From a virus (Duplodnaviria > Caudoviricetes): 64,000 nucleotides of DNA. The stretch lies in the IMG/VR virus record IMGVR_UViG_3300028800_000089, positions 2,194 to 66,193 of that record; one strand, 5' to 3'. How positions within the stretch are numbered: position 1 is the first letter of the stretch; each line of letters starts with the position of its first letter. Shown in pieces: positions 22,789 through 35,610 of the stretch. The notes beneath the pieces are model-generated. The model worked only from the letters and a program-made list of their open reading frames with translations, was not told the origin of the DNA and searched no databases. The position numbers were made by a program, and so were the translations under genes.

Positions 22789-23889
22789 ATGCCAGAGCCT
22801 ATTGCGGTTGCGCTAGGCGACATCCACTTGGACCCGAAGATATGGTCCAGTATAGACGCTGTAAGAGGAGACGCTGAGCTGGGTTACAGCGAATTCATTA
22901 GAGTGGCTCTTCAATTAGGAGTGCCACCAGTGATTGTCGGTGACCTGTTTGACACCACAAAGCCTACCCCGGACCTCGTAGCGATTCATCGGCGCCAAAT
23001 GGATCGCTGTCAGAAAGCTGGAGTCCCAGCGTACTTCATTCAGGGCAATCATGACCTCCAATCAACACCCTGGGCTAGTGCCCTACATGACTGGCCCAAG
23101 TACGTTGGCTCCGGGGAACCGTTTCAGTTAGGTCGTCGGATGGCCCTGGGATTCGATTACAGCCACAAAGAAGACATCAAGGCCTCACTAGAGGGGTCAC
23201 AGAAGAAACTCTTTCCTAGCGACGGGAAATGCCTCCTGTTCCTCCATCAGGCCGTTAGGCAAGCCCTGGGCTTCGAGAATGCCTGGAACTGTGACTTGGA
23301 CTGGATCCCGGAACAGTTCGGACTGACAGTAATTGGCGATATCCATAAAACGTTGGATTTCGAATTATCAAGTAACCGGAAAGCCTGCTATACCGGTTCC
23401 GGTCATGCCAGGGATATCACACAGATCGGGCCTAAGAGCTGCATCGTCATAAATGACGATTTGTCATATTACCGGCACCCCATGGCTTTTAGGCATATCA
23501 AGAAGTTCGTCGTCGTAGACGAAAAAGGTCTCGCTGACGTCCAGAGCTGGCTGTCTGAGGCGTGTGCTTCAGAAGAAGCTGGCCCTCTCCTACCATTTGC
23601 CTGGATCCACCATAGTCCGGAGCTGAATTCTGCTTTCAGTGATATCTACAAACAATTCGTTGAAACACGAAAGGCCATCATCCACCGAGACAAGGTCTTG
23701 GACATCCAAGATGCTGAAGAACTAGAGATCTCTCAGGATACTGAAGACATCTCTATTCCAGCATTGCTAAATACATTAGTAAGTTCCGACAAAGAGCCGG
23801 AACTACATAGCTTCTTATTACACCTCCTTGAACCAACCTCTAACCCAGTCGATGTACTCCTAAAAAAGAGAGAATCCGTCAATGCCTGA
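22789..23889 (+). CDS. sbcD: SbcD/Mre11-like nuclease subunit
   Basis: metallophosphoesterase motifs GDIH, GDLFD, GNHD, HQ, GDIH, Y.GS; SbcC partner downstream. Confidence 0.85.
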   Translation: MPEPIAVALGDIHLDPKIWSSIDAVRGDAELGYSEFIRVALQLGVPPVIVGDLFDTTKPTPDLVAIHRRQMDRCQKAGVPAYFIQGNHDLQSTPWASALHDWPKYVGSGEPFQLGRRMALGFDYSHKEDIKASLEGSQKKLFPSDGKCLLFLHQAVRQALGFENAWNCDLDWIPEQFGLTVIGDIHKTLDFELSSNRKACYTGSGHARDITQIGPKSCIVINDDLSYYRHPMAFRHIKKFVVVDEKGLADVQSWLSEACASEEAGPLLPFAWIHHSPELNSAFSDIYKQFVETRKAIIHRDKVLDIQDAEELEISQDTEDISIPALLNTLVSSDKEPELHSFLLHLLEPTSNPVDVLLKKRESVNA

Positions 23890-25396
23890 TCTAGTCTTAG
23901 TTCGCTCCGAGGAAATGACTCGCGAGCAACTCCGTGGTATCGGTCTTCGGGTCTACGGTGAGCCACAATATGGTGGCCACTTCGTTGCCCGTGAAGCATT
24001 ACTTGTCAAAATCGGTGAATCCGGTCGTAGAGTCAACGGTACCAATATCGTAGAATCCGGAGCTGCAACATACCGTGTCGCCAATATTGTGTTCCGCGAT
24101 GGCTCCAAAGCCGTAGCAACTGTTGATCCTAATTCGGTTCGTTTGATCCAATGGGGTGTCGTCCGTGGTGGCGATGTCGGTATGCTGAACCGTGTCGAGT
24201 GGCCGAAGATCCTGAAGAACACGTTGGTCCCCGTTATCAACCGCGATATCGTCATCGACGTTCCTCACGGTGAATACGGCTGTGTCGCACACAATACCGT
24301 TGAAACCGTATTCAAGGTCCACGTCTGGGGCAGCCCGGAACCGCGAAACGGAGACGAGGAAGCGTATAACCCACCACGGACTCTATGGGGCCACAGACTG
24401 CCAACGGGCGACCGTATGTCAGCGGGTCTCTGGACCGAGGGTGTCAACGTCATTTCACCGGAGTCACCGGCCGACAAGCCCATTGCGTGTTTCGACGAGG
24501 GTAACCTCTATATCTACGCCGATCTCTGTCATACCGATAGCACCCCAGAAGTGCATATCTTCGGTGAGATCATCAAGTTCGTAGCCGCCAATTATGCTGC
24601 CGCAAAGGGCAGAGTCGATGATCCCGTGGTTATGCGCAACAATTACGTCAACTTAGTCGAGAAGCGTAAGGCCCTCCAGGTCCGCGAGTTCACGAACGAG
24701 TTGGAAAGTGTCAGAAGCCACCTTCACGATCTGAATCGTGACGTAGTCGTGCAGATCCGCGAGGAGAAGCGTATCCTCAAGGATCTCTCTGCGTTAGACA
24801 ATGATGACGCATTCAATATCGAGCGGTTCGCCTCGGAGTACGATCGTCTCGTAGCCAACCCGTTGATTAAGTCCGTTAAGATGATGAACGGTAACATCAC
24901 GGTGCGCACCAACACGCTGTGCGTCACTGACCCCCGGACGAGCATCGAACACGAAGTCGGTCGGATGATGATTCACTTGGATATCAAGCGGTACAACGTC
25001 GTTGTAACGAACTTGGATCGCCAGGTCCATGGATTGCAGAGCAACATGCATGGCCCACATGTGTTCGCCAATGGCCGTATGTGCCTCGGCAACATGGAAG
25101 AGGTTCTACCGAAGCTCGTTGCCCAGTATCAATTAGCGGATGCTATTGAGCTAGTAGTTGCCATTCTCCAGACCTGCAATGTCGATGACCCAGCAGGCCG
25201 GAAGGTCAATTGCTGGCCATTATCGGAGAAGCAGAAAGCTAAAGATGCCGCAGCGAAGGCTGAAGCCAAGCGCCTCGCGAAAGCAGTTAAGACCGATGGC
25301 ACCATTGAAGTTGATACCAGAGCGACAGTTGATGATGGCATGTTAGATGGTACCGAAGAAGACGTCACTACACCAGTTCCAGAGGCAGCATTCTGA
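23882..25396 (+). CDS. multi-domain protein with C-terminal prokaryotic E2 (UBC-fold)-like domain, module 1
   Basis: HGPHVFANGRMCLGN (putative catalytic Cys401) resembles HPN...G.ICL of E2 enzymes; adjacent to JAB, E1 and Ubl genes. Confidence 0.7.
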   Translation: MPDLVLVRSEEMTREQLRGIGLRVYGEPQYGGHFVAREALLVKIGESGRRVNGTNIVESGAATYRVANIVFRDGSKAVATVDPNSVRLIQWGVVRGGDVGMLNRVEWPKILKNTLVPVINRDIVIDVPHGEYGCVAHNTVETVFKVHVWGSPEPRNGDEEAYNPPRTLWGHRLPTGDRMSAGLWTEGVNVISPESPADKPIACFDEGNLYIYADLCHTDSTPEVHIFGEIIKFVAANYAAAKGRVDDPVVMRNNYVNLVEKRKALQVREFTNELESVRSHLHDLNRDVVVQIREEKRILKDLSALDNDDAFNIERFASEYDRLVANPLIKSVKMMNGNITVRTNTLCVTDPRTSIEHEVGRMMIHLDIKRYNVVVTNLDRQVHGLQSNMHGPHVFANGRMCLGNMEEVLPKLVAQYQLADAIELVVAILQTCNVDDPAGRKVNCWPLSEKQKAKDAAAKAEAKRLAKAVKTDGTIEVDTRATVDDGMLDGTEEDVTTPVPEAAF

Positions 25397-26133
25397 TGTT
25401 CAATCCGCACAAGTTCGAGACCACTGTACTAGGCGTCCCATCGGTAAAGGTTTCGTTTAGGGCAGCAGTAGACATGTGGACATTAACTGACTTAGTCAAC
25501 ACCGAAGTCGGTTGGTTGACTACGGCGCGCATGGTCAAGGAACCCAATGAGACCGTCATCTACGTTGATGACGTCTACTTGTTCAAGCAGCAGGTTCACT
25601 CGACGACTACGGAGCTGACATCCGAGGGTCTGTCGATGCTGGGTACCCAATTGATTGCCGAGGACCAAGCTGCTGGTGTTGATCCCACGTTGTGGCGAGC
25701 CAACAACCTCCGGGGCTATTTCCATAGTCACGTCCACATGGACGTCATGCCCTCCGGACAGGATGAGCAGCAGACCATCGATTTCCGCGACAAGTACGAG
25801 TATCCCTGGGTCCTTCGGGGTATCGTCAATAAGAAGCACAAGATGAAGCTCGATCTGTATTGGTTCGAGCGCGATATGGTCATCAACGATATCGACTGGG
25901 AAATCGATTATACCACCTTCGGTGACCGCAAGGAACACTGGGGCAAGGAAATCGAGAGCCTCGTCGAATCGTTGTATTCAGCGAATAAGAGCACTCCTAT
26001 TTCGTATCCCGTCGGTAATTTTACGGATCCCCATCGTGGTCCGTCGGAATTCAGGCGTCTCGGGGAGTTTGCTCCGAATAGCACTCGTCACTACGGACAG
26101 CCATCGCTAGTTGGCTACCATCATGGCGACTAA
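25396..26133 (+). CDS. JAB/MPN+ metallopeptidase, module 1
   Basis: EVGW...HSHVHMDVMPSGQD matches E...H-x-H-x7-S-x2-D. Confidence 0.88.
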   Translation: MFNPHKFETTVLGVPSVKVSFRAAVDMWTLTDLVNTEVGWLTTARMVKEPNETVIYVDDVYLFKQQVHSTTTELTSEGLSMLGTQLIAEDQAAGVDPTLWRANNLRGYFHSHVHMDVMPSGQDEQQTIDFRDKYEYPWVLRGIVNKKHKMKLDLYWFERDMVINDIDWEIDYTTFGDRKEHWGKEIESLVESLYSANKSTPISYPVGNFTDPHRGPSEFRRLGEFAPNSTRHYGQPSLVGYHHGD

Positions 26134-26824
26134 TCTCACTGATACCATTCGACATCTCAAGGTCTTCTCACCGGTCAAGTTCGACAATACCAGAATCGAT
26201 GTAATCGGCGTAGGTGCCACTGGCAGTCGTATTGCCATGGCCCTTGCCAAGCTCGGTGTCCTGAACCTGCATATCTGGGATTTCGACAAGGTCGAGTCCC
26301 ACAATATTGCGAATCAAATTTATGGGAACAATGATATCGGCAAGTTCAAGGTAGACGCCTTAGCCGATCTCATCAAGGCCCAGACCAATTTAGACGTGAC
26401 CAAGCACAACGAGGCCGTCAATGGTCGTTCCGCGCTGGGTTCCGTTGTATTCCTGCTTACCGATACGATGTCTTCCCGGAAGGAGATCTGGGAAGGCGCG
26501 ATTAGGTATAAGCCATTTATTGAAGTCATGTTCGAGACCCGCATGGGTATCGACCTAGGCAGGACCTATTGGGTGCGCCCAACCTCGCCTGATGACGTCA
26601 AATTCTGGGAGTCCACGCTCTGCGGCGACGAAGAAGTCGTTGTTGTCAGTGCCTGTGGATCACAAATTACCGTTGGTTCCACTGCCGAGATCGTTAGCGG
26701 TCTCGCGGTGTGGAACTTCATTAATTGGTTCAATTGGTATTCTGACACGACCAATAAGGTCGAGCAGATGCCGAAAGAGACAATTTTTGGTGTAACTCCC
26801 CCAGCTATCCTAACCCGTTCGTAA
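26123..26824 (+). CDS. ThiF/E1-like adenylating enzyme, module 1
   Basis: GVGATG, DFDKVESHNIANQ, K.KV, LTD and a distal SACG cysteine. Confidence 0.92.
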   Translation: MATNLTDTIRHLKVFSPVKFDNTRIDVIGVGATGSRIAMALAKLGVLNLHIWDFDKVESHNIANQIYGNNDIGKFKVDALADLIKAQTNLDVTKHNEAVNGRSALGSVVFLLTDTMSSRKEIWEGAIRYKPFIEVMFETRMGIDLGRTYWVRPTSPDDVKFWESTLCGDEEVVVVSACGSQITVGSTAEIVSGLAVWNFINWFNWYSDTTNKVEQMPKETIFGVTPPAILTRS

Positions 26825-26835
26825 GAAAGAATCCC

Positions 26836-27042
26836 ATGAATATCACCATCGGCAAGTTCCCCGGCACCTCCATCCGTTCCATCGTCCTCCCCGAGGGCGC
26901 CAAGGTCCGTGATGCCCTAGCGGCCTCAGGCATTGACAGCACCGGCTTCGACATCCGTATCAATGGCAGCGCCGGCACTGTTGACAGCCCGGTTTCTGAA
27001 GGTAATGCTGTTCTCTTGACCCAGAAGATCAAGAGCAACTAA
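26836..27042 (+). CDS. single-domain ubiquitin-like (ThiS/MoaD beta-grasp) protein ending KIKSN
   Basis: 68 aa; LPEGAKVRDAL...IRING...V.EG..V.L pattern; directly after E1. Confidence 0.8.
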   Translation: MNITIGKFPGTSIRSIVLPEGAKVRDALAASGIDSTGFDIRINGSAGTVDSPVSEGNAVLLTQKIKSN

Positions 27043-27045
27043 CCC

Positions 27046-29367
27046 GTGATTTTGACGCGATTACAAACGACAAACTGGGGCTGCCTGAAGTCCGTAGATA
27101 TCCGGTTCAGCGAAGGCTTGACCGGTATTCTAGGGCCTAATGGCAGTGGTAAATCGACGCTACTCGATGCGCTTCGATTTGCCGTTACCGGTGAGTCAGT
27201 CGCGTCAGGACCACGAGCTGACAATATCACCTTGGGCGAACGTACTGGATCAGTTACGTTGGCGTTCGCCCACGGGGATAGCAGCTACGAGGTTAAGCGC
27301 GTTCTAGAGCCGTCGCGGCAGCAATTGAAGTTTCCCGGTGGAACCGTTAGTCGGCAGGCTGAGATCGAGGAGAAGCTCACGCTTCTTCTCGGTACCAGAA
27401 TGGATGCGTTGCTCAACAACGTGTTCATCGCCCAACACGATATCGACGCCATTCTATTCAAGACCAATACCGAGAGACTCCGGGAGTTCCAGGACACCTT
27501 CGGCTTATCCAAGGCCGCTGAGGTATACACCCTGCTGTCCACTGAGATCTCCTCGCTAAGCGTCACCACTGGGCTGGAGCAGCAATTACAGGTTACCGCC
27601 GGAGCATGCCAAGACGTTACCAAGGAACTCAACGAATTACGGGAACAGCTCCGCCTCACTGAGGACGAGCTGTTGGAATTGTCGAAGTACGAGGAGAGGT
27701 TGAGGCATTACAGAATAGCTCAGCAAAGCGCATCAGCTAAACGGCAAACCGAAGAGGCTCTTTCCCTGGCGCAGCAGCGCTATATAGAGTCCGACAAGGT
27801 TCTGGGTATAGCCAAGGATGAGCACGCCATTATTGTGCAGCGCTTCACAGCGATGCAGCCAATGGCAGCCGAGCAGGCCAAGGAGCTGGATCAAGCCAAG
27901 GCTACAGCAGCACAGCGCCGACTATTGGATAGCGAGCGCCATAATCTTGAATCCAATAAGATGAAGCCAGAAGCTGAACTGGGTAGTCATGATGAGCTAA
28001 TCAATAAGCTCTCAGAAACCCGTTCTAAGCTCAAGGCTATTATCGGTAAAGAAGCGCCTCTCCCGCAGACGCCCGAAGATAAGGATCTCGCTCAAAGAGT
28101 CGAGGAGCTGACGAAGCAATTGTCGGAGCTTCGACGCGATGATCCCAATTTGGCACTTATAGAAGCTGACATCCACCGGATCAAGCACGAACTCGAAACG
28201 TTCGCCGGTGGTCAGTGTCCTACGTGTCATCGTCCCATTGATAATTTCGACGACGCCGAGTTGAAGCGCCAAGCACAGGTTAAGCAAGTAGAGATTGCGA
28301 AGATCAAAAGTGATCAAGCCAAAAGAGTAGCTGAAGCGCAGAATGATTTGGCAGTTATTTCGAAGCGATTAGAAGAGCGTCGTAAAGCCGCGATGACAGC
28401 TGTCATCAATATGCTTGAGGCGACTAAGAAGCAATACGACAAGCTCGTGTCAGACAAGAATGCGCTGACACAGCAATGGGAGACCTATAACAGGTGTCAT
28501 GCCAGATTGAGTGCTATTCGCGCCCAGCTGGACAGCACCCCAGATGTAGGTACCGATAAAATAGAAGCGCTCCAGAAGGCTGTGGAGCAATTCAGGGCAC
28601 TACAGGATCAAGTTCAGAAATCGGAGTCTGAGGTTCGTATTAAGCAAGCAGCCCAAGCGTCTTGTACGTCAGAGGTTACAAGGCTCAAGGATTTGTTGCT
28701 TAAGGTCAGTGATAGCAAGTTCGAGTTGTCCGAAGCTGAGTTGCAAGAGGCTCAACTGAAGATTGAGTTATTGTCTGCGCGGACACAAACTCGGAACGAG
28801 CTAACTACGAAGATTGGCATTACTGATGCCAAGCTGATCCAGCTCCGGAGTTCCGTGGATCAATTGAAGAAGCAGTACGACCACGAGCGCAATGCCGCCA
28901 AGTGGTCGTCACTGTGCTCAAGAGCCAGGGAGGTCGTTCACGTTAACGGCTTACCGGCTCTGATGATGCGGGAGTATGCCAATAAGATCAACAAGCGCAT
29001 GGCGCACTACATGTCGATCTGGGAGGCCCCGTTTCAATTCTACCTGGATGGCGACCTGTCGTTTAAAGCCAAGTTCAGTAGTGGCTTTGAGCTACCGGCG
29101 CACCGGTTAAGCGGTGGTCAGAAGATTGTTGCCAGTACTAGTTTCAGGCTGGCGATGTCCGATACCTTCGCACGGTCAGTTGGACTGTTGATACTCGACG
29201 AGCCAACGAACCATTTAGATGAAAGTAACGTTGTGCATTTGCAGCAATTGTTACTCAAATTAAAGCAGTTTTCCGGGAGTACCGGAAGACAGATACTGAT
29301 TGTAACCCACGCTGAATCACTAACCAGCTTCTTTGATCAAACCATCAAATTAGCTAAAAAGGAATAA
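27046..29367 (+). CDS. sbcC: SbcC/Rad50-like SMC ATPase
   Basis: GPNGSGKST, Q-loop, coiled coils with central CPTC Zn hook, LSGGQ, LILDEPT, VTH. Confidence 0.93.
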   Translation: MILTRLQTTNWGCLKSVDIRFSEGLTGILGPNGSGKSTLLDALRFAVTGESVASGPRADNITLGERTGSVTLAFAHGDSSYEVKRVLEPSRQQLKFPGGTVSRQAEIEEKLTLLLGTRMDALLNNVFIAQHDIDAILFKTNTERLREFQDTFGLSKAAEVYTLLSTEISSLSVTTGLEQQLQVTAGACQDVTKELNELREQLRLTEDELLELSKYEERLRHYRIAQQSASAKRQTEEALSLAQQRYIESDKVLGIAKDEHAIIVQRFTAMQPMAAEQAKELDQAKATAAQRRLLDSERHNLESNKMKPEAELGSHDELINKLSETRSKLKAIIGKEAPLPQTPEDKDLAQRVEELTKQLSELRRDDPNLALIEADIHRIKHELETFAGGQCPTCHRPIDNFDDAELKRQAQVKQVEIAKIKSDQAKRVAEAQNDLAVISKRLEERRKAAMTAVINMLEATKKQYDKLVSDKNALTQQWETYNRCHARLSAIRAQLDSTPDVGTDKIEALQKAVEQFRALQDQVQKSESEVRIKQAAQASCTSEVTRLKDLLLKVSDSKFELSEAELQEAQLKIELLSARTQTRNELTTKIGITDAKLIQLRSSVDQLKKQYDHERNAAKWSSLCSRAREVVHVNGLPALMMREYANKINKRMAHYMSIWEAPFQFYLDGDLSFKAKFSSGFELPAHRLSGGQKIVASTSFRLAMSDTFARSVGLLILDEPTNHLDESNVVHLQQLLLKLKQFSGSTGRQILIVTHAESLTSFFDQTIKLAKKE

Positions 29368-29369
29368 CC

Positions 29370-30035
29370 ATGTCTATCGCCATCACTCTCGAACTAAACG
29401 GCAACCGCGAGGTTCGCGAGGTTTCGTATGTCACCAATGTCAGCGATCTGCTGAACGCACTGTCGCTATCGCGTGGCTCAGTCGTGCGCGTCAACGGGAC
29501 CGAGGCCAGCATCGGCAGCCCCGTGCGTCACGGTGACTTCGTTCAGATTTCCGTCGTAGCCGTGGCCCCGGTCGCTGCGACGACCCCAGGCGGTAAGGTC
29601 CTGTTCATCAACAATGATGGTGCAGGCTTCGCTGACCCGGTTGCTTTCGCGGCCGGTACCAATCTCGGTCAGTTCATCGCTGAGCGTGATATCTCCATTT
29701 CCGGCAAGATGATTCGCGTCAACAACAACCTGGCCGATGCCGGCTACGTTCTCCGTGACGGTGATAAGATCTCGGTTACCCCGCTCAAGGTCGAGGGTGC
29801 CGTGGAGATGATCAAGGTCCTGTACATCAACAACGACGGTTCAGGTTTCGCTGAGCCAGTGCAGGCTATTTCGGGCGTCACGCTGTTCCAGTTCCTTGCT
29901 CAGCAGGGCTCTGATCCGGCCGGCAAGATGGTCCGTCTGAACAACGATATCGCTGCCGGGACGACCGTGCTGCGTAACGGTGACAAGATCTCCGTTACCC
30001 CGCTCAAGGTCGAGGGTGCCGGTTCGCGTAATTAA
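29370..30035 (+). CDS. three-domain polyubiquitin-like precursor
   Basis: three beta-grasp-like units; units 2 and 3 both end GDKISVTPLKVEGA; GSRN tail. Confidence 0.85.
   Translation: MSIAITLELNGNREVREVSYVTNVSDLLNALSLSRGSVVRVNGTEASIGSPVRHGDFVQISVVAVAPVAATTPGGKVLFINNDGAGFADPVAFAAGTNLGQFIAERDISISGKMIRVNNNLADAGYVLRDGDKISVTPLKVEGAVEMIKVLYINNDGSGFAEPVQAISGVTLFQFLAQQGSDPAGKMVRLNNDIAAGTTVLRNGDKISVTPLKVEGAGSRN
29775..30021 (+). repeat. identical 28-nt repeats encoding the Ubl C-termini
   Basis: GTTACCCCGCTCAAGGTCGAGGGTGCCG at 29775-29802 and 29994-30021 (219 nt = 73 codons apart). Confidence 0.9.
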
Positions 30036-30074: not shown

Positions 30075-30089
30075 ACACAAACCACAAAG

Positions 30090-30121
30090 CCCCCATGGTA
30101 ACCCCATGGGGGTGTCTTTTT
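30090..30121 (+). terminator. intrinsic terminator after the poly-Ubl gene
   Basis: CCCCCATGG-taacc-CCATGGGGG followed by TGTCTTTTT. Confidence 0.7.
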
Positions 30122-30131
30122 CAGAGAACAC

Positions 30132-30929
30132 ATGACTACACTCGTCGCACCGGGCGTCACGCTCAAGGATTTCATCTTTGATCTCTTTAATGAGGATAAG
30201 AGCAATGCAGAAGTCGCCAAGATTTTGGGCGATACCTGCGATTACGATAAAGTCGCAGCTTACCGAGTGGCCTGGAAAAAGGCTACCGGTCATGAAGACA
30301 TGCATCATACCACAAAGCATCTCCTCATCGATAAGCCCTTAGCAGGCGTGACTGATGCCCTTATCTATGAAACCAACGGTTTCAAGGATAACGGTGATAA
30401 AGGTGAGATGACTATAGCTTTTGAACGGCACGGTAGGACCGTTTCCAAGAGCAAGAAGGATGGCGATGTCAAGAAAGTCACATACGCCGAACTAGCCAAG
30501 ATTAACGGTAATACCGGTAGAATATTCGACGGCGTAGCCTGTGATGGTTACGGCGAGGAATCCATGAAGCTGCTGGCCATGGGCATAGTGCAGCTGATCA
30601 AACCAACTGGAGGTTGGCTGTGGATCACGAATAACCTGCCCAATAAGTTCTGTAGTAGACTACCTCTACTCCAGGCAGTTGCGTGTAATTATTATCGTAC
30701 CCCGACTCCCGAGGAAGCTGACTTTATTGACGCAGTAGCTAGATATTGCTTCATGTGGGGCTTCCTAGCTGACCCATTCCAGTCGATGGTCTTCGGTGGT
30801 GGTGGTAAGGGAATTATACAGACTGTGTTCAAGTTGAGCCAATTGCCGATGCCCAAGTTCGAAGGTGATCAATCTTGGAAGAAGGAGCGATTGGAAATAG
30901 CCAAGTTAATCAATGACGTGGAGGGATAA
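30132..30929 (+). CDS. hypothetical protein, possible N-terminal HTH plus class I methyltransferase-like domain
   Basis: FDGVACDGYG...LIKPTGGWLWIT resembles FD.IDLDPYG...K.GG.L.VT of Rossmann methyltransferases. Confidence 0.4.
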   Translation: MTTLVAPGVTLKDFIFDLFNEDKSNAEVAKILGDTCDYDKVAAYRVAWKKATGHEDMHHTTKHLLIDKPLAGVTDALIYETNGFKDNGDKGEMTIAFERHGRTVSKSKKDGDVKKVTYAELAKINGNTGRIFDGVACDGYGEESMKLLAMGIVQLIKPTGGWLWITNNLPNKFCSRLPLLQAVACNYYRTPTPEEADFIDAVARYCFMWGFLADPFQSMVFGGGGKGIIQTVFKLSQLPMPKFEGDQSWKKERLEIAKLINDVEG

Positions 30930-31228
30930 TGAATGATGTAAAAGAGTTAATTAACAAGTTCAAGCTGAAGCCATATCCTCATGACAGAGGAATGGCTAGA
31001 GACCTGATCTGTCCTAATTGTGGTAATAGAGATCAGTTCAAGATATCTGGTGTCTGTGTCGCCGTTATCGACGGTGAAGGCTATATTCACGAGGTAACCG
31101 GATATGAGTTCCATGATAGGAGCCTCTGTCTGTGTTTCGGATGTGACAAAGAGGACGACGTCTCAGTGTTTAAGGCCAAGGGCCTAGACGCCGAGCTTTC
31201 TAAGGTAAGTAATGTCAGTAATACATGA
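30929..31228 (+). CDS. small Zn-ribbon protein
   Basis: CPNCG...CFGC. Confidence 0.65.
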   Translation: MNDVKELINKFKLKPYPHDRGMARDLICPNCGNRDQFKISGVCVAVIDGEGYIHEVTGYEFHDRSLCLCFGCDKEDDVSVFKAKGLDAELSKVSNVSNT

Positions 31229-33530
31229 CGGAGCAGACGTTTCATGGCAGCCTGATTACGAGAGCGAAGCTTCCGAGTTCTTTGAACGGCTTCGCGCTCG
31301 CCAAGCTCGTACAAGTATAGGAATCCCAGTTGACTTGACGCAACAAGCGACAATCAGCAATGACGGTCGTATGGTGATGGTATCGACCCCAACGCGTCCA
31401 GTAAGTATAATGGACGTGGCGGAGGATGCGACAGATCGGTTTACTAGGGAGCAGCACCAGCTTTTGGAGCGTATACAGCGCGGGGAAGGCGAATTTTCTA
31501 TTCTGTCGAGGCCTTATAATACCGTGAGAGTAGATGAGAGTGATGAATCGGATAGGCTTGACTTACTCAATAATTTGCCGCAGCCAATTAGTAACGCCGT
31601 AGCAGGTACTTCAGGGCCGAATACGGACGCAGCTGACGCATTACACCATGCCATGGAAGTAATGCGTAACAGCCTGGCTATCCCACAGGATATGATGGTA
31701 CCAGTTGTCAGACCCATGCCGCATCTACCGTTTACGGTATCATCAGAGGTGACGAGACCATGGCTGATGACATCCAATGAATTGCGGCTCGATTCGGTAC
31801 ATGTTAATAATGAATTCAGGTTTTTATCAGCAAGCACAGGACGAACACCCCAGGAACAACATGTGAGAGAACTTCCAGCGGATAAAGCATTAGCAGTAGA
31901 GAAGCTAGTCCAAGAGGCACTTCCACCGCAAGAGATGTCGCCAATTGTTGCGGAGCAGCACACTAGCCTAGTAAAGTTGGCTAAGGCCTTCTACTTAGGT
32001 TACTTAGAGGGCAACAACGGTAGCCACAGAGACGTCAATGAGTCGCTGTACAACACCATGCGCCAGGCTATCGGTCGCTGGCACGGCGTCTTGTCCGTCA
32101 GAAACGATTCCGACAAGCCGGGCTATATCATGTCGCAGCTATTTAGGAACAACGCCGATTCCCTGACTCTGGAGAAGCTAAACGCCATTAAGAACGGTAC
32201 CAACCCGTTCACCGCTGCTCCCCCAGTGGTATCAGACGATATCGTGAAGCGGTTCATTATTGAGATGGCCGGTATGTTGAACGCGAAGATAGCAGTCCTG
32301 GTCATGGATATGAGTTCGAACCTAGAAGGTGGGAGTGCTCCGCGTGGCGGTGCCCGCTTTACTACTGGTGACGTGACGCTGACCGATGAAGGCGAAGATA
32401 TCATGGTTGGCCCAGTCGCGTTGGGTAAGTTCGATGTAAGTGTTAACATATACGACTTCGGCTTGGTCTGCGGTAACCAGGAGTCCGGAGTAAATGACAT
32501 CGTTAGAATATCCGCTCAGACCCCGGTATACCCCCGTAACGAACGTGGTGGCTTCGTCCACCCGCACGTCGAGGGATCTAGATTGTGTTTCGGTGACGGC
32601 CTAGCTGTTGCCGGCAATCTCGTACGTGCTGGGCTCATTGCTGATCTGTTCCAGTACGTTGAGCGTATTCTCATGACCTATGGGTCATCGCCGTACATCG
32701 ATTTGAGTGAATGGACCGATTTGGATCATTGCAGCGTCTGCTCGGCTACGATACAGCCCGATGATGCTTATCACGATCCCCATAGCGGCCGAGACCTCTG
32801 TGAGGAATGTGTAGGGCACTGTGATATCGGTAATACCGATGTCGATAGAAGGTACATACGGCACTGCTCTAAGTGCAATCTACACTTCGATGAGCGCTCG
32901 TATTACGGTAGAGTCGAAGAGGAACGCCGCCGTGAGACCAGGTTTATCTGTCTTCGCTGTGTCGAGAAGGAGCAGGTAGAGGCAGCTAAGCTCGCAGCTG
33001 AAATCGCCTCTAAGGCTATGGATACTACAACGACGCCAGCCTTCCCAGTAGTTGCACCGACCCCGGGCAAGAACTGCCCAAGTTGCGGTGCTAGTATCGG
33101 TGAGGTGGTGGTCAATCCGGATGGTTCAGTAGTAGTTGAAAATAAGATTACTGGCTATGATCCCATTATGCAGGTTATGACCTGTGATCACTGTGACCCA
33201 GCTGGTTATAATTTGTCCAATGCCGTGTGTACCCCAGGGATGCGTGAAGCATACCTAGCGACGCTTATGGCGCATTACGTACCACACGACTTCATTCAGG
33301 ACATCTTCATCAACAATGAAGAGAGCTTCGAATCCGAGGCTGATAAGGCTGAATGGCGTGCCATCGATTGGTACACGTTATTGACAACATTCCGGAATAA
33401 CCTCATGGATCACGGGCCGCTACGTCAAGATATGGCTTTCGCAGCCGTAATCGACAAGCTCTGTGAATTAGCTGAATACAACATATTCTCAGAACTGACG
33501 TATCGCCTTGCAACACCGAGAACAGCATGA
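31212..33530 (+). CDS. large E2-like protein with C-terminal multi-Zn-finger region, module 2
   Basis: FVHPHVEGSRLCFGD (putative Cys459), then PY..LSEW and CSVC, CEEC, CSKC, CLRC, CPSC, CDHC. Confidence 0.72.
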   Translation: MSVIHDGADVSWQPDYESEASEFFERLRARQARTSIGIPVDLTQQATISNDGRMVMVSTPTRPVSIMDVAEDATDRFTREQHQLLERIQRGEGEFSILSRPYNTVRVDESDESDRLDLLNNLPQPISNAVAGTSGPNTDAADALHHAMEVMRNSLAIPQDMMVPVVRPMPHLPFTVSSEVTRPWLMTSNELRLDSVHVNNEFRFLSASTGRTPQEQHVRELPADKALAVEKLVQEALPPQEMSPIVAEQHTSLVKLAKAFYLGYLEGNNGSHRDVNESLYNTMRQAIGRWHGVLSVRNDSDKPGYIMSQLFRNNADSLTLEKLNAIKNGTNPFTAAPPVVSDDIVKRFIIEMAGMLNAKIAVLVMDMSSNLEGGSAPRGGARFTTGDVTLTDEGEDIMVGPVALGKFDVSVNIYDFGLVCGNQESGVNDIVRISAQTPVYPRNERGGFVHPHVEGSRLCFGDGLAVAGNLVRAGLIADLFQYVERILMTYGSSPYIDLSEWTDLDHCSVCSATIQPDDAYHDPHSGRDLCEECVGHCDIGNTDVDRRYIRHCSKCNLHFDERSYYGRVEEERRRETRFICLRCVEKEQVEAAKLAAEIASKAMDTTTTPAFPVVAPTPGKNCPSCGASIGEVVVNPDGSVVVENKITGYDPIMQVMTCDHCDPAGYNLSNAVCTPGMREAYLATLMAHYVPHDFIQDIFINNEESFESEADKAEWRAIDWYTLLTTFRNNLMDHGPLRQDMAFAAVIDKLCELAEYNIFSELTYRLATPRTA

Positions 33531-34927
33531 CAAACATCACTGATATCAAGTTAAAGTTCACCCCGTATTCACGGGCCAAGCTCCAATTCATCTGTGATCA
33601 CTATGATCACGAGGTTGGAGCCATGGGCATCGCTGAGACGGCTGACCCATTCCTGGTTACTGATCTGTTCATTCCGAAGCAGAAGTGCTCCCCGGTATTC
33701 GTGGAGATGGACCCCAGCGACCTAGCTGATTCCATGTTCATGACCTATTGTGACCCCGACGGTCCGCATAAGTTGAAGCCCCATCAGGTCGGTCGTATCT
33801 TCATTCATACTCACCCGACGGGCTGCTTGGATCCGTCTCCGCATGATGAAACCATCTTCGCGGAGTCCTTCGGTTCGCAGCCCTGGGCAATGATGGTCAT
33901 CCTACCAAAGGGTGGTCGTCTCTATGCCCGTGTCCGTGTAGCACTTGGAAACGATATTAACCTCCAGATGCGCATCCCCGACGAGATGGTTATTACCACC
34001 GACTTCAAGGGTGCAGATCATGCTGCGTGGAAGGCGGAGATCGATCCGAAGATTACGTCCGAGGTTTTTACTTATCAGGGTACTTCGGATGCTAAGCCGG
34101 GGTACAAAGGGATCGTGAAGCTTCCAAGCGGATACTGGGGTAAGCGCCTCAGTAAGAAGCAGCTGAAGCGTGCCGCTAGAGCCGCCGCCCGTGAGGGAGC
34201 TGCACAGCGTCAGGAGACTATTGAGGAAGCGGCTAAGAATATCGTAGTCCAAGGGGAGGAGGAGCTGTCCAACATTCCGTTTCCCTTCCAGCACGATACC
34301 CAGCAAGACGCCGACGGAGATTCCCTTATTGCGTCGAGCAAGTACGTCGATGCAATCTATTCTGAATTGGCTCTTCGGTGGGTTCCGCCGTGTACCGCTG
34401 AAAGAATCGAGTACCTGAAGAGCTTCGGCTTTACTCATGTAATCGATGATGAGAAGCATACCGAGCGGTTTACTATACCACGCGGTGATACGTTCTTCGA
34501 TCTGCCGTTCAAGCAGGCCTGGGCGTTCGTAGAGGAAGAAGAGGGTCTAGCAGCTGAGCGCGAAGATTTCGAGCGTGCCATGCATATTTCGACGCACATG
34601 CGGAAGTACGGTGACGTCCTCTGCACCGGTGATTTCGTTACGAATACTTACAAGAAGGTCAGAGCAGACTGTCTCTGGCAGCTCAAGGGATCCACTGATG
34701 CCAGTGACGCCCTTGTGCTTACCCGTGATGAGATGCTGATTGCCGAGCAAGTCGTTGCCGGAACGTTGACGGCAGACGAGGCCCTGAATCGCATTCCCGA
34801 TGTCGTTGACGAGCAAGAGGTTATAGAGAGTAATGGAGTATTCACGGAGTATTGTGCTTCGACTCCAGAACCAACAACGAGAACACAAACTGAGGAGGAA
34901 TACCTTCTCATGCTAGGGGAAAACTAA
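33527..34927 (+). CDS. JAB/MPN+ metallopeptidase with long C-terminal extension, module 2
   Basis: HEVGAMG...HTHPTGCLDPSPHD matches E...H-x-H-x7-S-x2-D. Confidence 0.88.
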   Translation: MTNITDIKLKFTPYSRAKLQFICDHYDHEVGAMGIAETADPFLVTDLFIPKQKCSPVFVEMDPSDLADSMFMTYCDPDGPHKLKPHQVGRIFIHTHPTGCLDPSPHDETIFAESFGSQPWAMMVILPKGGRLYARVRVALGNDINLQMRIPDEMVITTDFKGADHAAWKAEIDPKITSEVFTYQGTSDAKPGYKGIVKLPSGYWGKRLSKKQLKRAARAAAREGAAQRQETIEEAAKNIVVQGEEELSNIPFPFQHDTQQDADGDSLIASSKYVDAIYSELALRWVPPCTAERIEYLKSFGFTHVIDDEKHTERFTIPRGDTFFDLPFKQAWAFVEEEEGLAAEREDFERAMHISTHMRKYGDVLCTGDFVTNTYKKVRADCLWQLKGSTDASDALVLTRDEMLIAEQVVAGTLTADEALNRIPDVVDEQEVIESNGVFTEYCASTPEPTTRTQTEEEYLLMLGEN

Positions 34928-35610
34928 TGCCAGCAGAACCGACGCGCTTTGATCGTCAGTCCACCGTCATCCCCACTGAGGAGCTACTTGCTACCTCAGC
35001 GGTGGTGATCGGTGTAGGAGCCATTGGCAGGCAGGTAGCTCTCCAGCTATCTGCCTGTGGTATCGGTGAATTGCATCTCGTCGATTTCGACACCGTTGAC
35101 ATCGTCAATGTCGGCCCCCAGGGCTATAAGCCAGCTGATGTCGGCAAGCCCAAGTGTGCTGCACTGATTGCAGACTGTATCGCCCTGAATCCCGACGGTG
35201 TTAACATTGCCCACGAGATGCGCTTCTGCGATGCCATCCGTGGTGACGTCTATTTCTGCTGTGTCGATAGTATTAAGACCCGTGGCCAGATCTTCGACGA
35301 GGTAGCTAAGCTGCCGGACACCGAGTTGTTCATCGATGCCCGTATGTCAGCTGAGACGATCCGTGTTATCACCGAAGACAACTTCGTTGAGCCACAGTAT
35401 CGTGGTACCATATTCGAGCCAGCAGAAGCCTTCCAGGGGGCCTGCACCGCGAAGTCCACCATCTTCACAGCCAATATCGCTGCTGGTCTGATGGTGAGCC
35501 AGTTCTCTAAGTACCTCAGGGGCATGGCATTAGAAAAGGACTTCAATTTGAACCTGCTGTCCCTAGAGTTGTTCCCTACACCAAAGACAATGGCAGCAGC
35601 GGCGCGATGA
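34927..35610 (+). CDS. ThiF/E1-like adenylating enzyme, module 2
   Basis: RFDRQ, GVGAIG, DFDTVD..N...Q, K.K, CVDS, DAR and a distal GACT cysteine. Confidence 0.92.
   Translation: MPAEPTRFDRQSTVIPTEELLATSAVVIGVGAIGRQVALQLSACGIGELHLVDFDTVDIVNVGPQGYKPADVGKPKCAALIADCIALNPDGVNIAHEMRFCDAIRGDVYFCCVDSIKTRGQIFDEVAKLPDTELFIDARMSAETIRVITEDNFVEPQYRGTIFEPAEAFQGACTAKSTIFTANIAAGLMVSQFSKYLRGMALEKDFNLNLLSLELFPTPKTMAAAAR

What the first reader, a model, noticed from the sequence alone, without database searches (positions are those of the whole stretch)
29370..30035. Polyubiquitin-like precursor: three tandem Ubl domains with repeated KVEGA processing sites
Seen in sequence: unit 1 (aa about 1-63) has no Gly terminus and is followed by an Ala/Pro linker. 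Units 2 (about 76-144) and 3 (about 147-217) share KVL.INNDG.GFA.PV and end identically in GDKISVTPLKVEGA, encoded by an identical 28-nt repeat, while their middles diverge. A GSRN tail caps the last unit. Established: eukaryotic polyubiquitin and bacterial BilA need a peptidase to expose the terminal Gly. Inference: a JAB cuts after G143 and G216, releasing a di-domain (ISG15-like) and a mono-domain modifier from one gene. I recall single-domain NNDG.GFA...TP.K.EGA proteins from Planctomycetota, which would hint at the host, but this is unverified.
Basis: partly seen in the sequence, partly recalled or inferred. Interest (0 to 1): 0.85.

Follow-up and report, generated by a model that had tools for sequence, protein, structure and literature searches.

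The report
Phage poly-ubiquitin-like tag precursor gene
A large uncultured phage encodes one protein made of three ubiquitin-like domains, two of which keep the full attachment tail found on single-domain relatives, so the gene looks like a viral counterpart of a polyubiquitin precursor, though cutting has not been shown.

Summary
ORF 29370-30035 (221 aa) folds as three beta-grasp domains joined by disordered linkers. Units 2 and 3 are 61% identical and both end in GDKISVTPLKVEGA, with a 28-nt identical core.

The units belong to a large Ubl family of 1178 cluster representatives. The cognate enzymes here are module 2 (31212-35610), not module 1.

The internal tail looks selected. Of 23 tandem proteins whose units are at most 65% identical, 21 keep the internal Gly. 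The first domain of all 11 three-domain proteins has lost the tail.

Cleavage itself is untested. The cut could fall after Gly or after the nearly invariant Ala. The main rival is use as an uncut three-domain tag, like bacterial BubA/BilA Ubl3.

I rate it a new variant of a known kind. The scan had already noted phage poly-Ubl genes and the planctomycete cassette on other DNA (e1-5774374, e1-5861598, e1-1361988). My paper searches found no description of it.

The parts
29370..30035 (+). poly-Ubl gene, 221 aa, three beta-grasp domains
29370..29558 (+). unit 1 (aa 1-63): tail-less beta-grasp, weakly similar to the module-1 68-aa Ubl
29559..29594 (+). Ala/Pro-rich linker (aa 64-75), variable in length and sequence among homologues
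29595..29801 (+). unit 2 (aa 76-144), ends in TPLKVEGA
29781..29801 (+). internal tail P138-A144 (PLKVEGA), predicted processing site; P138, K140, G143 and A144 invariant in 9 of 9 homologues
29802..29813 (+). 4-residue junction VEMI between the internal tail and unit 3
29814..30020 (+). unit 3 (aa 149-217), ends in TPLKVEGA
30000..30020 (+). terminal tail P211-A217 (PLKVEGA)
30021..30032 (+). C-terminal cap GSRN, absent or different in homologues
30089..30113 (+). terminator-like hairpin (10-bp stem, 7 G-C pairs, T-run) that ends the transcription unit after the poly-Ubl gene
31212..33530 (+). module-2 E2-like protein (772 aa): HPHV-x5-C-x-G core followed by a Cys-rich zinc-finger array
33527..34927 (+). 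module-2 JAB/JAMM peptidase (466 aa, HxH-x7-S-x2-D intact), the predicted processing enzyme
34927..35610 (+). module-2 minimal ThiF-type E1 (227 aa)
26836..27042 (+). module-1 68-aa Ubl ending in KIKSN (context; the nearest relative of unit 1 in the window)

Best explanation
The gene encodes a poly-Ubl precursor. Units 2 and 3 are two diverged copies of a ubiquitin-like modifier. Single-copy forms of this modifier lead Ubl / E2-like / JAB / E1 cassettes in other phages and in mobile elements of Planctomycetota.

Shown:
- The protein has three beta-grasp domains.
- The family tail is kept intact after unit 2 as well as after unit 3.
- The cognate enzyme set is module 2 of this phage.

Inferred:
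- The module-2 JAB peptidase (33527-34927) cuts at both tails, either G|A or A|x, and removes the GSRN cap.
- This releases a two-domain tag (unit 1 + unit 2, built like ISG15) and a one-domain tag (unit 3).
- The minimal E1 (34927-35610) adenylates each freed C-terminus and passes it to the Cys of the HPHV...C E2-like protein (31212-33530).
- The zinc-finger array of the E2-like protein may choose the still unknown targets.
For: Fold:
- AF2 gives a mean pLDDT of 77 and three beta-grasp units. The disordered stretches lie exactly at 64-71, 141-144 and 215-221.
- The best Foldseek matches are linear tetra- and tri-ubiquitin, ISG15, FAT10 and bacterial multi-ubiquitin proteins.

Family:
- 1178 representatives have E <= 1e-3.
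- Single-unit members carry the same tail at their C-terminus, followed by 0 to 89 unconserved residues.
- They sit directly before E2-like, JAB and E1 genes. 60 of 80 genome loci have all three genes and 58 have them in that order. 14 of the rest are cut off by a contig end.
- The three phage loci L003-L005 show the same arrangement.

Cognate enzymes:
- Those enzymes match the window's module 2 best: E1 in 68 of 69 cases, JAB in 74 of 75 and E2-like in 77 of 78.

The internal tail looks selected:
- P138, K140, G143 and A144 are invariant in 9 of 9 three-domain homologues.
- Among 28 tandem proteins, 26 keep G-[AGN] in the penultimate unit.
- Among the 23 whose unit bodies are only 24-63% identical, 21 keep the Gly. 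Their tails are on average 6.3 of 8 identical.
- The first domain of all 11 three-domain proteins has lost the tail, so tails do decay when they are not needed.

Junctions:
- In 26 of the 28 tandem proteins only a few residues separate the tail from the next unit (one residue in P0011), as in polyubiquitin; P0017 (about 10) and P0022 (about 25) are longer.

Precedent:
- JAB peptidases expose the Ubl C-terminus in Bil and Bub systems (PMC10557695 passages; PMC11601596 Results section, part 1 of 3).
Against: - No cleavage, expression or conjugation data exist.
- The characterised bacterial three-domain Ubls (Ubl3 of Bil/Bub) are used whole and form filaments (PMC11601603 passages).
- Two tandem family members have lost the internal Gly (P0017 KIQAA, P0028 NIKAA), so internal cutting is not universal.
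- Tail variants co-vary between the units of one protein: GN/GN, GG/GG, Q/Q. This could reflect recent duplication or gene conversion rather than a shared enzyme.
- The unit tree is weakly resolved. The unit-2 and unit-3 clades have supports of only 81-84, and units pair within a protein in three lineages.
- The 28 tandem proteins are not phylogenetically independent.
- The gene is separated from module 2 by a terminator-like hairpin and two unassigned genes, and it is co-transcribed with module 1.
Confidence: 0.55

Rival explanations
1. It is an uncut three-domain modifier. Only the GSRN cap is trimmed, and the whole chain of about 217 residues is conjugated through the last tail, as with BubA/BilA Ubl3, ISG15 or FAT10. 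The internal tail would persist because of recent duplication, gene conversion or a structural role.
For: Ubls with three beta-grasp domains make up 53% of Bub and 21% of type II Bil Ubls and act whole (PMC11601603 passages). Structures of two of them are among the Foldseek matches: 9cd2_A at E 7.5e-6 and 9d5a at E 1.5e-5. Unit 1 is clearly not released on its own, because it has no tail. P0017 and P0028 lack the internal Gly. Units pair within a protein in the tree for P0006/7 and P0009.
Against: The internal tail survives at body identities of 24-63% in 21 of 23 tandem proteins, whereas first domains lose it in 11 of 11. In L002 the two tails differ at 5 synonymous sites and one residue, so there was no recent conversion there, yet the protein motif is kept. 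The model shows no confident domain packing (pTM 0.36) and a disordered junction. Sequence identity to the solved Ubl3 chains in the structural alignments is 8-10%. The Bil/Bub partner proteins are absent.
Confidence: 0.33
2. It is not a conjugated tag at all. It could be a sulfur carrier of the ThiS/MoaD type, or a decoy that occupies host Ubl enzymes of the same family carried by planctomycete mobile elements.
For: The best sequence-level matches are ThiS, MoaD and SAMP2, all weak: PDB profile E 0.017 and above, NCBIfam thiS E 0.0017 and below its cut-off. Bacteria that may be hosts carry the same cassette family.
Against: Every well-sampled locus pairs the Ubl with a protein that has an E2-type HP[HN]...C core (77 of 80 ORFs) and a UBC-like predicted fold (best Z 7.2; 29 of the 50 rows shown are E2 enzymes by my count). 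A JAB peptidase is also present. Sulfur-carrier systems lack both. No thiamine or molybdopterin genes were seen among the ten neighbours scanned. The phage carries its own complete enzyme set.
Confidence: 0.08

Closest known systems
Eukaryotic polyubiquitin precursors (UBB, UBC, yeast UBI4)
   Same: Head-to-tail modifier units each carry the conjugation tail. Junctions are very short and the last unit has a short C-terminal cap. A dedicated peptidase is expected to release the units. Some family members have near-identical units (77-94%), as under concerted evolution. Facts about the eukaryotic genes are from my own knowledge.
   Different: There is no detectable sequence homology to ubiquitin (7-8% identity in structural alignments). 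Only two of the three domains carry a tail. The units are 61% identical, not 100%. The tail ends in Gly-Ala, not Gly-Gly. The predicted products are unequal (a two-domain tag and a one-domain tag). Processing is unproven.
[quoted passage not shown] 2006)
   Same: Three tandem beta-grasp domains in a prokaryotic E1/E2/peptidase context. Iyer et al. already called them reminiscent of polyubiquitin (PMC1779556, passages and section 14; PMC11601603 passages).
   Different: Those proteins act whole, pair domains 1 and 2 tightly and form Ca2+-dependent filaments. Their partners are a multidomain E1 plus a CEHH E2, or a JAB-E1 fusion plus DUF6527. None of these is found here. I saw no statement that their internal domains keep a conjugation tail, but I could not read their sequences or supplements.
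Type II BilA / BilC of Ensifer aridi
   Same: The gene order is the same (Ubl, E2, JAB, E1). The Ubl ends in Gly-Ala, and the JAB peptidase removes the residue(s) after the conserved Gly before adenylation (PMC10557695 passages).
   Different: In BilA the residues after the Gly are not conserved. Here the next residue is Ala or Gly in 135 of 144 proteins, and no protein ends at the Gly. The E1 here is a roughly 230-aa single-domain ThiF type, not IAD-AAD-CYS. The E2-like protein has an HPH...C core plus zinc fingers, not the CEHH type.
Archaeal SAMP2 with JAMM1 (PDB 5lda) and ThiS/MoaD
   Same: These are the nearest solved proteins by sequence profile (SAMP2 E 0.017). They share the ...GD.[IV].[IV].P + 5-6 residue tail layout and have a JAMM partner.
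   Different: The match is weak. SAMPs are single domains ending in Gly-Gly and work without an E2.
ISG15 / FAT10
   Same: The predicted unit 1 + unit 2 product would be a two-domain tag with only the second domain bearing the tail. ISG15 and FAT10 are among the best Foldseek matches (E 6.6e-7 and 1.6e-6).
   Different: They share the fold only. They are made as separate genes, not cut out of a longer chain together with a second tag.

Membership tests
Ubiquitin-like beta-grasp modifiers (ThiS/MoaD/SAMP/ubiquitin superfamily) | beta-grasp fold | tested here: met
   The AF2 model has three beta-beta-alpha-beta...beta units. 105 PDB matches have E <= 0.001, led by linear ubiquitin chains and ISG15.
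Ubiquitin-like beta-grasp modifiers (ThiS/MoaD/SAMP/ubiquitin superfamily) | flexible C-terminal tail ending in Gly-Gly or Gly | tested here: inconclusive
   The tail is disordered in the model. It ends in Gly-Ala (118 of 144) or Gly-Gly (17 of 144), and no protein ends at the Gly.
Ubiquitin-like beta-grasp modifiers (ThiS/MoaD/SAMP/ubiquitin superfamily) | linked E1-like adenylating enzyme | tested here: met
   Pfam ThiF at E 1e-20 for 34927-35607. An E1 follows the Ubl cassette in 60 of 80 genome loci.
Ubiquitin-like beta-grasp modifiers (ThiS/MoaD/SAMP/ubiquitin superfamily) | match to a curated family model above its cut-off | tested here: not met
   Pfam Ub-Mut7C 20.6 bits (cut-off 23) and TGS 20.4 bits (cut-off 22.2). 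NCBIfam thiS 18.6 bits (cut-off 37.45).
Polyubiquitin-type precursor | tandem units, each ending in the conjugation tail | tested here: met
   Units 2 and 3 both end in TPLKVEGA. Unit 1 does not have the tail, so this feature is met for two of the three domains.
Polyubiquitin-type precursor | units identical or nearly identical in protein sequence | tested here: not met
   61% identity in the window. Other family members reach 77-94%.
Polyubiquitin-type precursor | short cap after the last unit | tested here: met
   GSRN here. The cap is 0 to 2 residues in the other 7 homologues apart from P0002.
Polyubiquitin-type precursor | release of the units by a peptidase | not testable with these tools
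   This needs protein chemistry. Only the presence of an intact JAB motif and the family linkage were seen.
Bil/Bub Ubl3 | three beta-grasp domains | tested here: met
Bil/Bub Ubl3 | operon partners: multidomain BilD E1 + CEHH E2, or JAB-E1 fusion + DUF6527 | tested here: not met
   E1, JAB and E2-like are separate genes. The E1s are 227 and 237 aa. None of the ten neighbours scanned hits DUF6527. PADLOC hits only the E1 part of Cap2 models.
Bil/Bub Ubl3 | rigid domain 1-2 pair with a Ca2+ site; filament formation | tested here: inconclusive
   pTM 0.36 and disordered linkers suggest no fixed packing, but the alignment had only 9 rows and I had no error map.
Phage / Planctomycetota Ubl - E2-like(zinc finger) - JAB - minimal E1 cassette (not found in the papers searched) | Ubl with an NNDGxGFA head and a TPxK[IV]xG[AG] tail | tested here: met
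Phage / Planctomycetota Ubl - E2-like(zinc finger) - JAB - minimal E1 cassette (not found in the papers searched) | enzymes of the same three families in the genome | tested here: met
   Module 2 is the best match for 68 of 69 E1, 74 of 75 JAB and 77 of 78 E2-like ORFs of the other loci.
Phage / Planctomycetota Ubl - E2-like(zinc finger) - JAB - minimal E1 cassette (not found in the papers searched) | Ubl gene directly upstream of the E2-like gene | tested here: not met
   In the window a terminator-like hairpin and two genes (265 aa and 99 aa) lie between them. L002 has the same layout. The genes are adjacent in L003, L004 and L005.

The most novel reading that the evidence does not exclude
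Phages and planctomycete mobile elements have independently and repeatedly evolved true polyprotein genes for a ubiquitin-like tag. The JAB peptidase cuts them into different modifiers, here a two-domain tag and a one-domain tag from one gene. The tag ends in Gly-Ala rather than Gly-Gly, so an E1/E2 cascade would be activating a C-terminal alanine. The phage would use it, together with a second Ubl module embedded in its sbcCD genes, to tag host or viral proteins during infection.
Probability: 0.4. Interest if true: 0.8.

Novelty: new variant of a known kind. Interest (0 to 1): 0.62.

Why it matters
In the papers I read, ubiquitin-like conjugation in bacteria is treated as anti-phage defence (Bil, Bub, CBASS Cap2). 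In the characterised systems the multi-domain tags are used whole.

This case differs in three ways:
- The machinery is virus-encoded.
- The tag gene has the logic of a polyubiquitin gene, with the conjugation tail kept between units over long divergence.
- It ties into a cassette family with over a thousand cluster representatives, abundant in Planctomycetota, that no curated model or paper I could search covers.

If the internal cut is real, it would be a convergent, non-eukaryotic origin of the polyubiquitin gene design. It would also give a simple system for asking how one precursor yields two different tags, and whether an E1 can use a C-terminal alanine.

Tried and rejected
- **Phage GenBank search.** tblastn of the protein against the phage collection found no match.
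- **Defence and phage libraries.** PADLOC had no model for the Ubl, the JABs or the E2-like proteins. PHROGs gave only phrog_13013, of unknown function, at E 3.5e-4.
- **Word-index search.** Searching with unit 3 alone found a single protein. I then used a profile search of the representative library.
- **Gene conversion as the cause of the 28-nt identity.** Codon comparison was inconclusive. Tail codons are also highly similar between orthologues (10-11 of 14 identical), and the two tails in L002 differ at 5 synonymous sites. I do not claim conversion.
- **Unit tree.** It is poorly resolved, with 3 of 19 inner branches well supported. I use it only as weak support.
- **E2-like protein.** The profile against PDB sequences gave only weak Cys-rich zinc-finger matches, E >= 0.006. 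Foldseek gave no match at E <= 0.001. VIA-align gave UBC enzymes at a middling Z, 7.2 at best. I therefore call the E2 fold probable, not proven.
- **C-terminal alanine in CBASS.** The passages I read in 10.1101/2022.03.31.486616 do not mention one, so I dropped that precedent.
- **Literature.** Six searches ran. None found a paper on a phage or planctomycete cassette of this type, or on prokaryotic poly-Ubl genes with internal tails. Supplementary tables of the Bil/Bub papers, which list operons and Ubl architectures, were not open to me and could hold related cases.
- **Not used.** Complex prediction (a pass would not separate 'cut' from 'uncut'), read laying, the look-up of sequencing runs, the protein-atlas search and the metagenome scan.
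- **Rows dropped.** Of the 37 proteins with two or more profile domains, I left 9 out of the tandem count of 28. P0023 has a truncated last unit. P0058, P0102, P0112, P0117 and P0120 are split hits within one unit. P0082, P0132 and P0135 have another build.

Full report
**What is there**

The window is 64 kb of a 66-kb IMG/VR virus record that CheckV rates 36% complete. Nearly all long ORFs lie on the + strand.

ORF 29370-30035 encodes 221 aa. It starts 2 nt after the stop of an SbcC-like gene (PHROG 77, E 1.2e-44). A terminator-like hairpin at 30089-30113 follows it, the strongest in 14.5 kb.

- Three direct repeat families lie at a constant spacing of 219 nt.
- A 28-nt stretch is identical between the copies (29775-29802 and 29994-30021).
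- Units 2 and 3 share 42 of 69 residues, E 4e-30.

The identical protein is on record from 7 contigs, up to 176.6 kb long. Eight homologues of 38-72% identity have the same build. It is a real, conserved gene.

**Fold**

AlphaFold2 on the 9-row alignment gives a mean pLDDT of 77 and three beta-grasp units. Only residues 64-71, 141-144 and 215-221 fall below pLDDT 50, so both KVEGA tails are predicted to be flexible. A pTM of 0.36 gives no sign of fixed packing between the domains.

Foldseek against the PDB puts these first: linear tetra- and tri-ubiquitin (E 4.6e-10), ISG15, FAT10, USP7 Ubl arrays, and the bacterial multi-ubiquitin proteins 9cd2 and 9d5a. In the viral library the best match is an uncharacterised multi-domain protein of an uncultured phage, followed by giant-virus ubiquitins.

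At sequence level only sub-threshold ThiS, MoaD, SAMP2 and Mut7-C hits appear.

**The family and its enzymes**

Other viral contigs carry single-unit relatives:
- L003: 75 aa, ending ...TPTKVEGALN.
- L004: 77 aa, ending ...KIDGGSIL.
- L005: 101 aa, ending ...KNIEGAHGRRFWF.

Each sits directly upstream of three genes: an E2-like protein with HP[HN]V-x5-C, a JAB and a ThiF-type E1 of about 230 aa. L002 is fully syntenic with the window.

A scan of one genome per prokaryotic species with the head motif found 307 confirmed relatives. Of the best 80 loci, 72 carry a Planctomycetota-lineage label by my reading. Five are unlabelled and three carry other labels, all of them MAG contigs. I checked one family name in the taxonomy. 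That scan could only find sequences that keep the NNDG.GFA head, so the taxonomic spread is a lower bound.

In those 80 loci:
- 60 have E2-like, JAB and E1 downstream of the Ubl, and 58 have them in that order.
- 14 are cut off by a contig end.
- 6 are incomplete.

The enzymes of all these loci match the window's module 2 (31212 / 33527 / 34927), not module 1. The counts are 68 of 69 E1, 74 of 75 JAB and 77 of 78 E2-like ORFs. The single exception in each set is L005's own module 1.

So the peptidase expected to act on the KVEGA tails is the JAB at 33527-34927. Its HxH-x7-S-x2-D motif is intact in the translation.

The E2-like assignment rests on three results:
- The HP[HN]...C-x-G motif occurs in 77 of 80 ORFs.
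- H186, P187 and C195 are invariant in a 32-row alignment.
- The model's residues 73-241 align to UBC enzymes. The best is UBE2S at Z 7.2, rmsd 3.6 over 126 residues. By my count 29 of the 50 rows shown are E2 enzymes, and BubB scores Z 5.4.

The tool warns that Z below 8 can be a common arrangement, and Foldseek alone found nothing significant. I call the E2 fold probable.

**Is the internal tail functional?**

A profile of the unit found 1178 cluster representatives at E <= 1e-3. I analysed the 157 proteins in hand: the best 150 plus earlier hits.
- 120 have one profile domain, 26 have two and 11 have three.
- Of the 37 multi-domain proteins, I set 9 aside (listed under Tried and rejected). 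The other 28 are true tandems.
- 26 of those 28 keep G-[A/G/N] at the end of the penultimate unit. The exceptions are P0017 (KIQAA) and P0028 (NIKAA).
- The first domain of all 11 three-domain proteins has no tail.
- The bodies of the two last units have a median identity of 49%. In the 23 pairs at or below 65%, 21 keep the Gly, and the 8-residue tails are on average 6.3 of 8 identical.
- In 26 of the 28 tandems only a few residues lie between the tail and the next unit. In P0011 a single Ala replaces the start Met of the next unit (...TPTKVEGA-A-KVLFINNDG...). P0017 (about 10) and P0022 (about 25) are longer.
- A two-unit form also occurs in a cellular genome (L030).

The pattern is that the tail is kept next to a following unit and lost on N-terminal domains. 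That is what a processing and activation site would show. It is not what a mere linker would show.

Caveats:
- The 28 proteins are not independent lineages.
- Units of some proteins are near-identical, which points to recent duplication.
- Tail variants co-vary within proteins.
- The unit tree is weak.
- A codon-level test for gene conversion was inconclusive.

**Where would the cut be?**

There is a precedent. Type II BilA has a universally conserved Gly followed by up to nine unconserved residues. E. aridi BilA ends in G97-A98, and BilC removes what follows the Gly (PMC10557695 passages). BubCD cuts right after G229 (PMC11601596 Results section, part 1 of 3).

In this family, however, the residue after the Gly is itself conserved. 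Of 144 proteins with a final P.[KNR]..G motif:
- the next residue is Ala in 118 and Gly in 17;
- it is Asn in 3, Ser in 2, and Arg, Val, Ile or Phe in one each;
- none ends at the Gly.

Of the 90 single-unit proteins with the strict motif, 20 end exactly at GA or GG. The column after that is unconserved.

So either ...EGA is the mature end, or Ala is an obligatory first residue of the leaving group. I cannot decide between these.

**Comparison with what is known**

Multi-domain prokaryotic Ubls are not new:
- Iyer et al. 2006 described polyUbl proteins of two to three units in class 6e operons and called them reminiscent of polyubiquitin (PMC1779556, passages and section 14).
- Gong et al. showed that three-domain Ubls make up 53% of Bub and 21% of type II Bil Ubls, stay whole and form Ca2+-dependent filaments (PMC11601603 passages).

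The present gene differs in four ways:
- Its partners are separate: a minimal E1, a JAB and an HPH...C E2-like protein with zinc fingers.
- There is no multidomain E1, no JAB-E1 fusion and no DUF6527.
- It lies in a phage.
- It keeps the conjugation tail between units.

My six paper searches found no description of this cassette family or of internal tails.

Within this scan the theme has appeared before on other DNA:
- a phage gene of three head-to-tail units ending in Lys-Gly-Asn (e1-5774374);
- capped, tandem or fused Ubl precursors in marine phages (e1-5861598);
- the planctomycete mobile-element cassette (e1-1361988), which my independently agree with.

**Open oddities**

- By position the poly-Ubl gene belongs to the module-1 / sbcCD transcription unit, yet by homology its tail-bearing units belong to module 2.
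- Unit 1 resembles the module-1 68-aa Ubl (38% over 37 aa, pairwise E 3e-5). A bridging role between the two modules is conceivable, but that is pure speculation.

**Verdict**

- Observation: confirmed.
- Interpretation: partly supported. The fold, the enzyme context and the Planctomycetota link are verified. Comparative data favour internal processing, but it is unproven, and the cut position and the responsible JAB are refined.
- Confidence in the precursor reading: 0.55.
- Confidence in the uncut three-domain tag: 0.33.
- Novelty: new variant of a known kind.

Noticed in passing
L029:509-12663 (also L024, L026, L027; L038/L046/L060; L059/L074/L075): In Planctomycetota the Ubl / E2-like / JAB / E1 cassette is multi-copy within a genome. 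Copies are 82-95% identical over 3-9 kb. In L029 the cassette sits in an element with a large serine recombinase and an AAA ATPase upstream and an IS (rve) transposase downstream.
   Followed up: partly
window 26836-27042; L002:7466-7672; L005:7296-7502: The module-1 68-aa Ubl ends in KIKSN in the window and in L002 but in KVKGN in L005. There is no cap, and the Gly is replaced by Ser in two of the three phages.
   Followed up: partly
L030:5217-5693: A Phycisphaerae MAG encodes a two-unit tandem Ubl (158 aa...TPTKIDGA-A-KVLFINNDG...TPTKIEGAA) upstream of E2-like, JAB and E1 genes. Poly-Ubl genes of this family are therefore not confined to phages.
   Followed up: partly
window 32811-33071 (aa 270-356 of the model region 32004-33071): The Cys-rich array after the E2-like core has 10 invariant or near-invariant Cys pairs in 32 sequences. 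It aligns to RIM/FYVE-type zinc fingers (2cjs_C, Z 6.6, rmsd 2.1 over 53 aa). It could be a built-in target-recognition or E3-like part.
   Followed up: partly
window 30132-31228: Two genes (265 aa, and 99 aa with a weak zinc-ribbon hit) lie between the poly-Ubl gene and the module-2 E2-like gene. They are conserved in L002 (264 aa and 97 aa) and absent in L005. They have no family match in Pfam, PADLOC, PHROGs (265-aa gene only) or NCBIfam.
   Followed up: partly
protein P0022 (171 aa): A two-unit family member has tails that both end in Gly-Asn and an acidic spacer of about 25 residues between the units. It is a different solution from the usual short junction of a few residues.
   Followed up: no
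window 22789-29367: Module 1 (E2-like, JAB, E1, 68-aa Ubl) is inserted between the sbcD-like and sbcC-like genes, with overlapping or nearly abutting stops and starts. The same layout is seen in L002 and L005. This hints that DNA-end processing proteins could be partners or targets.
   Followed up: no
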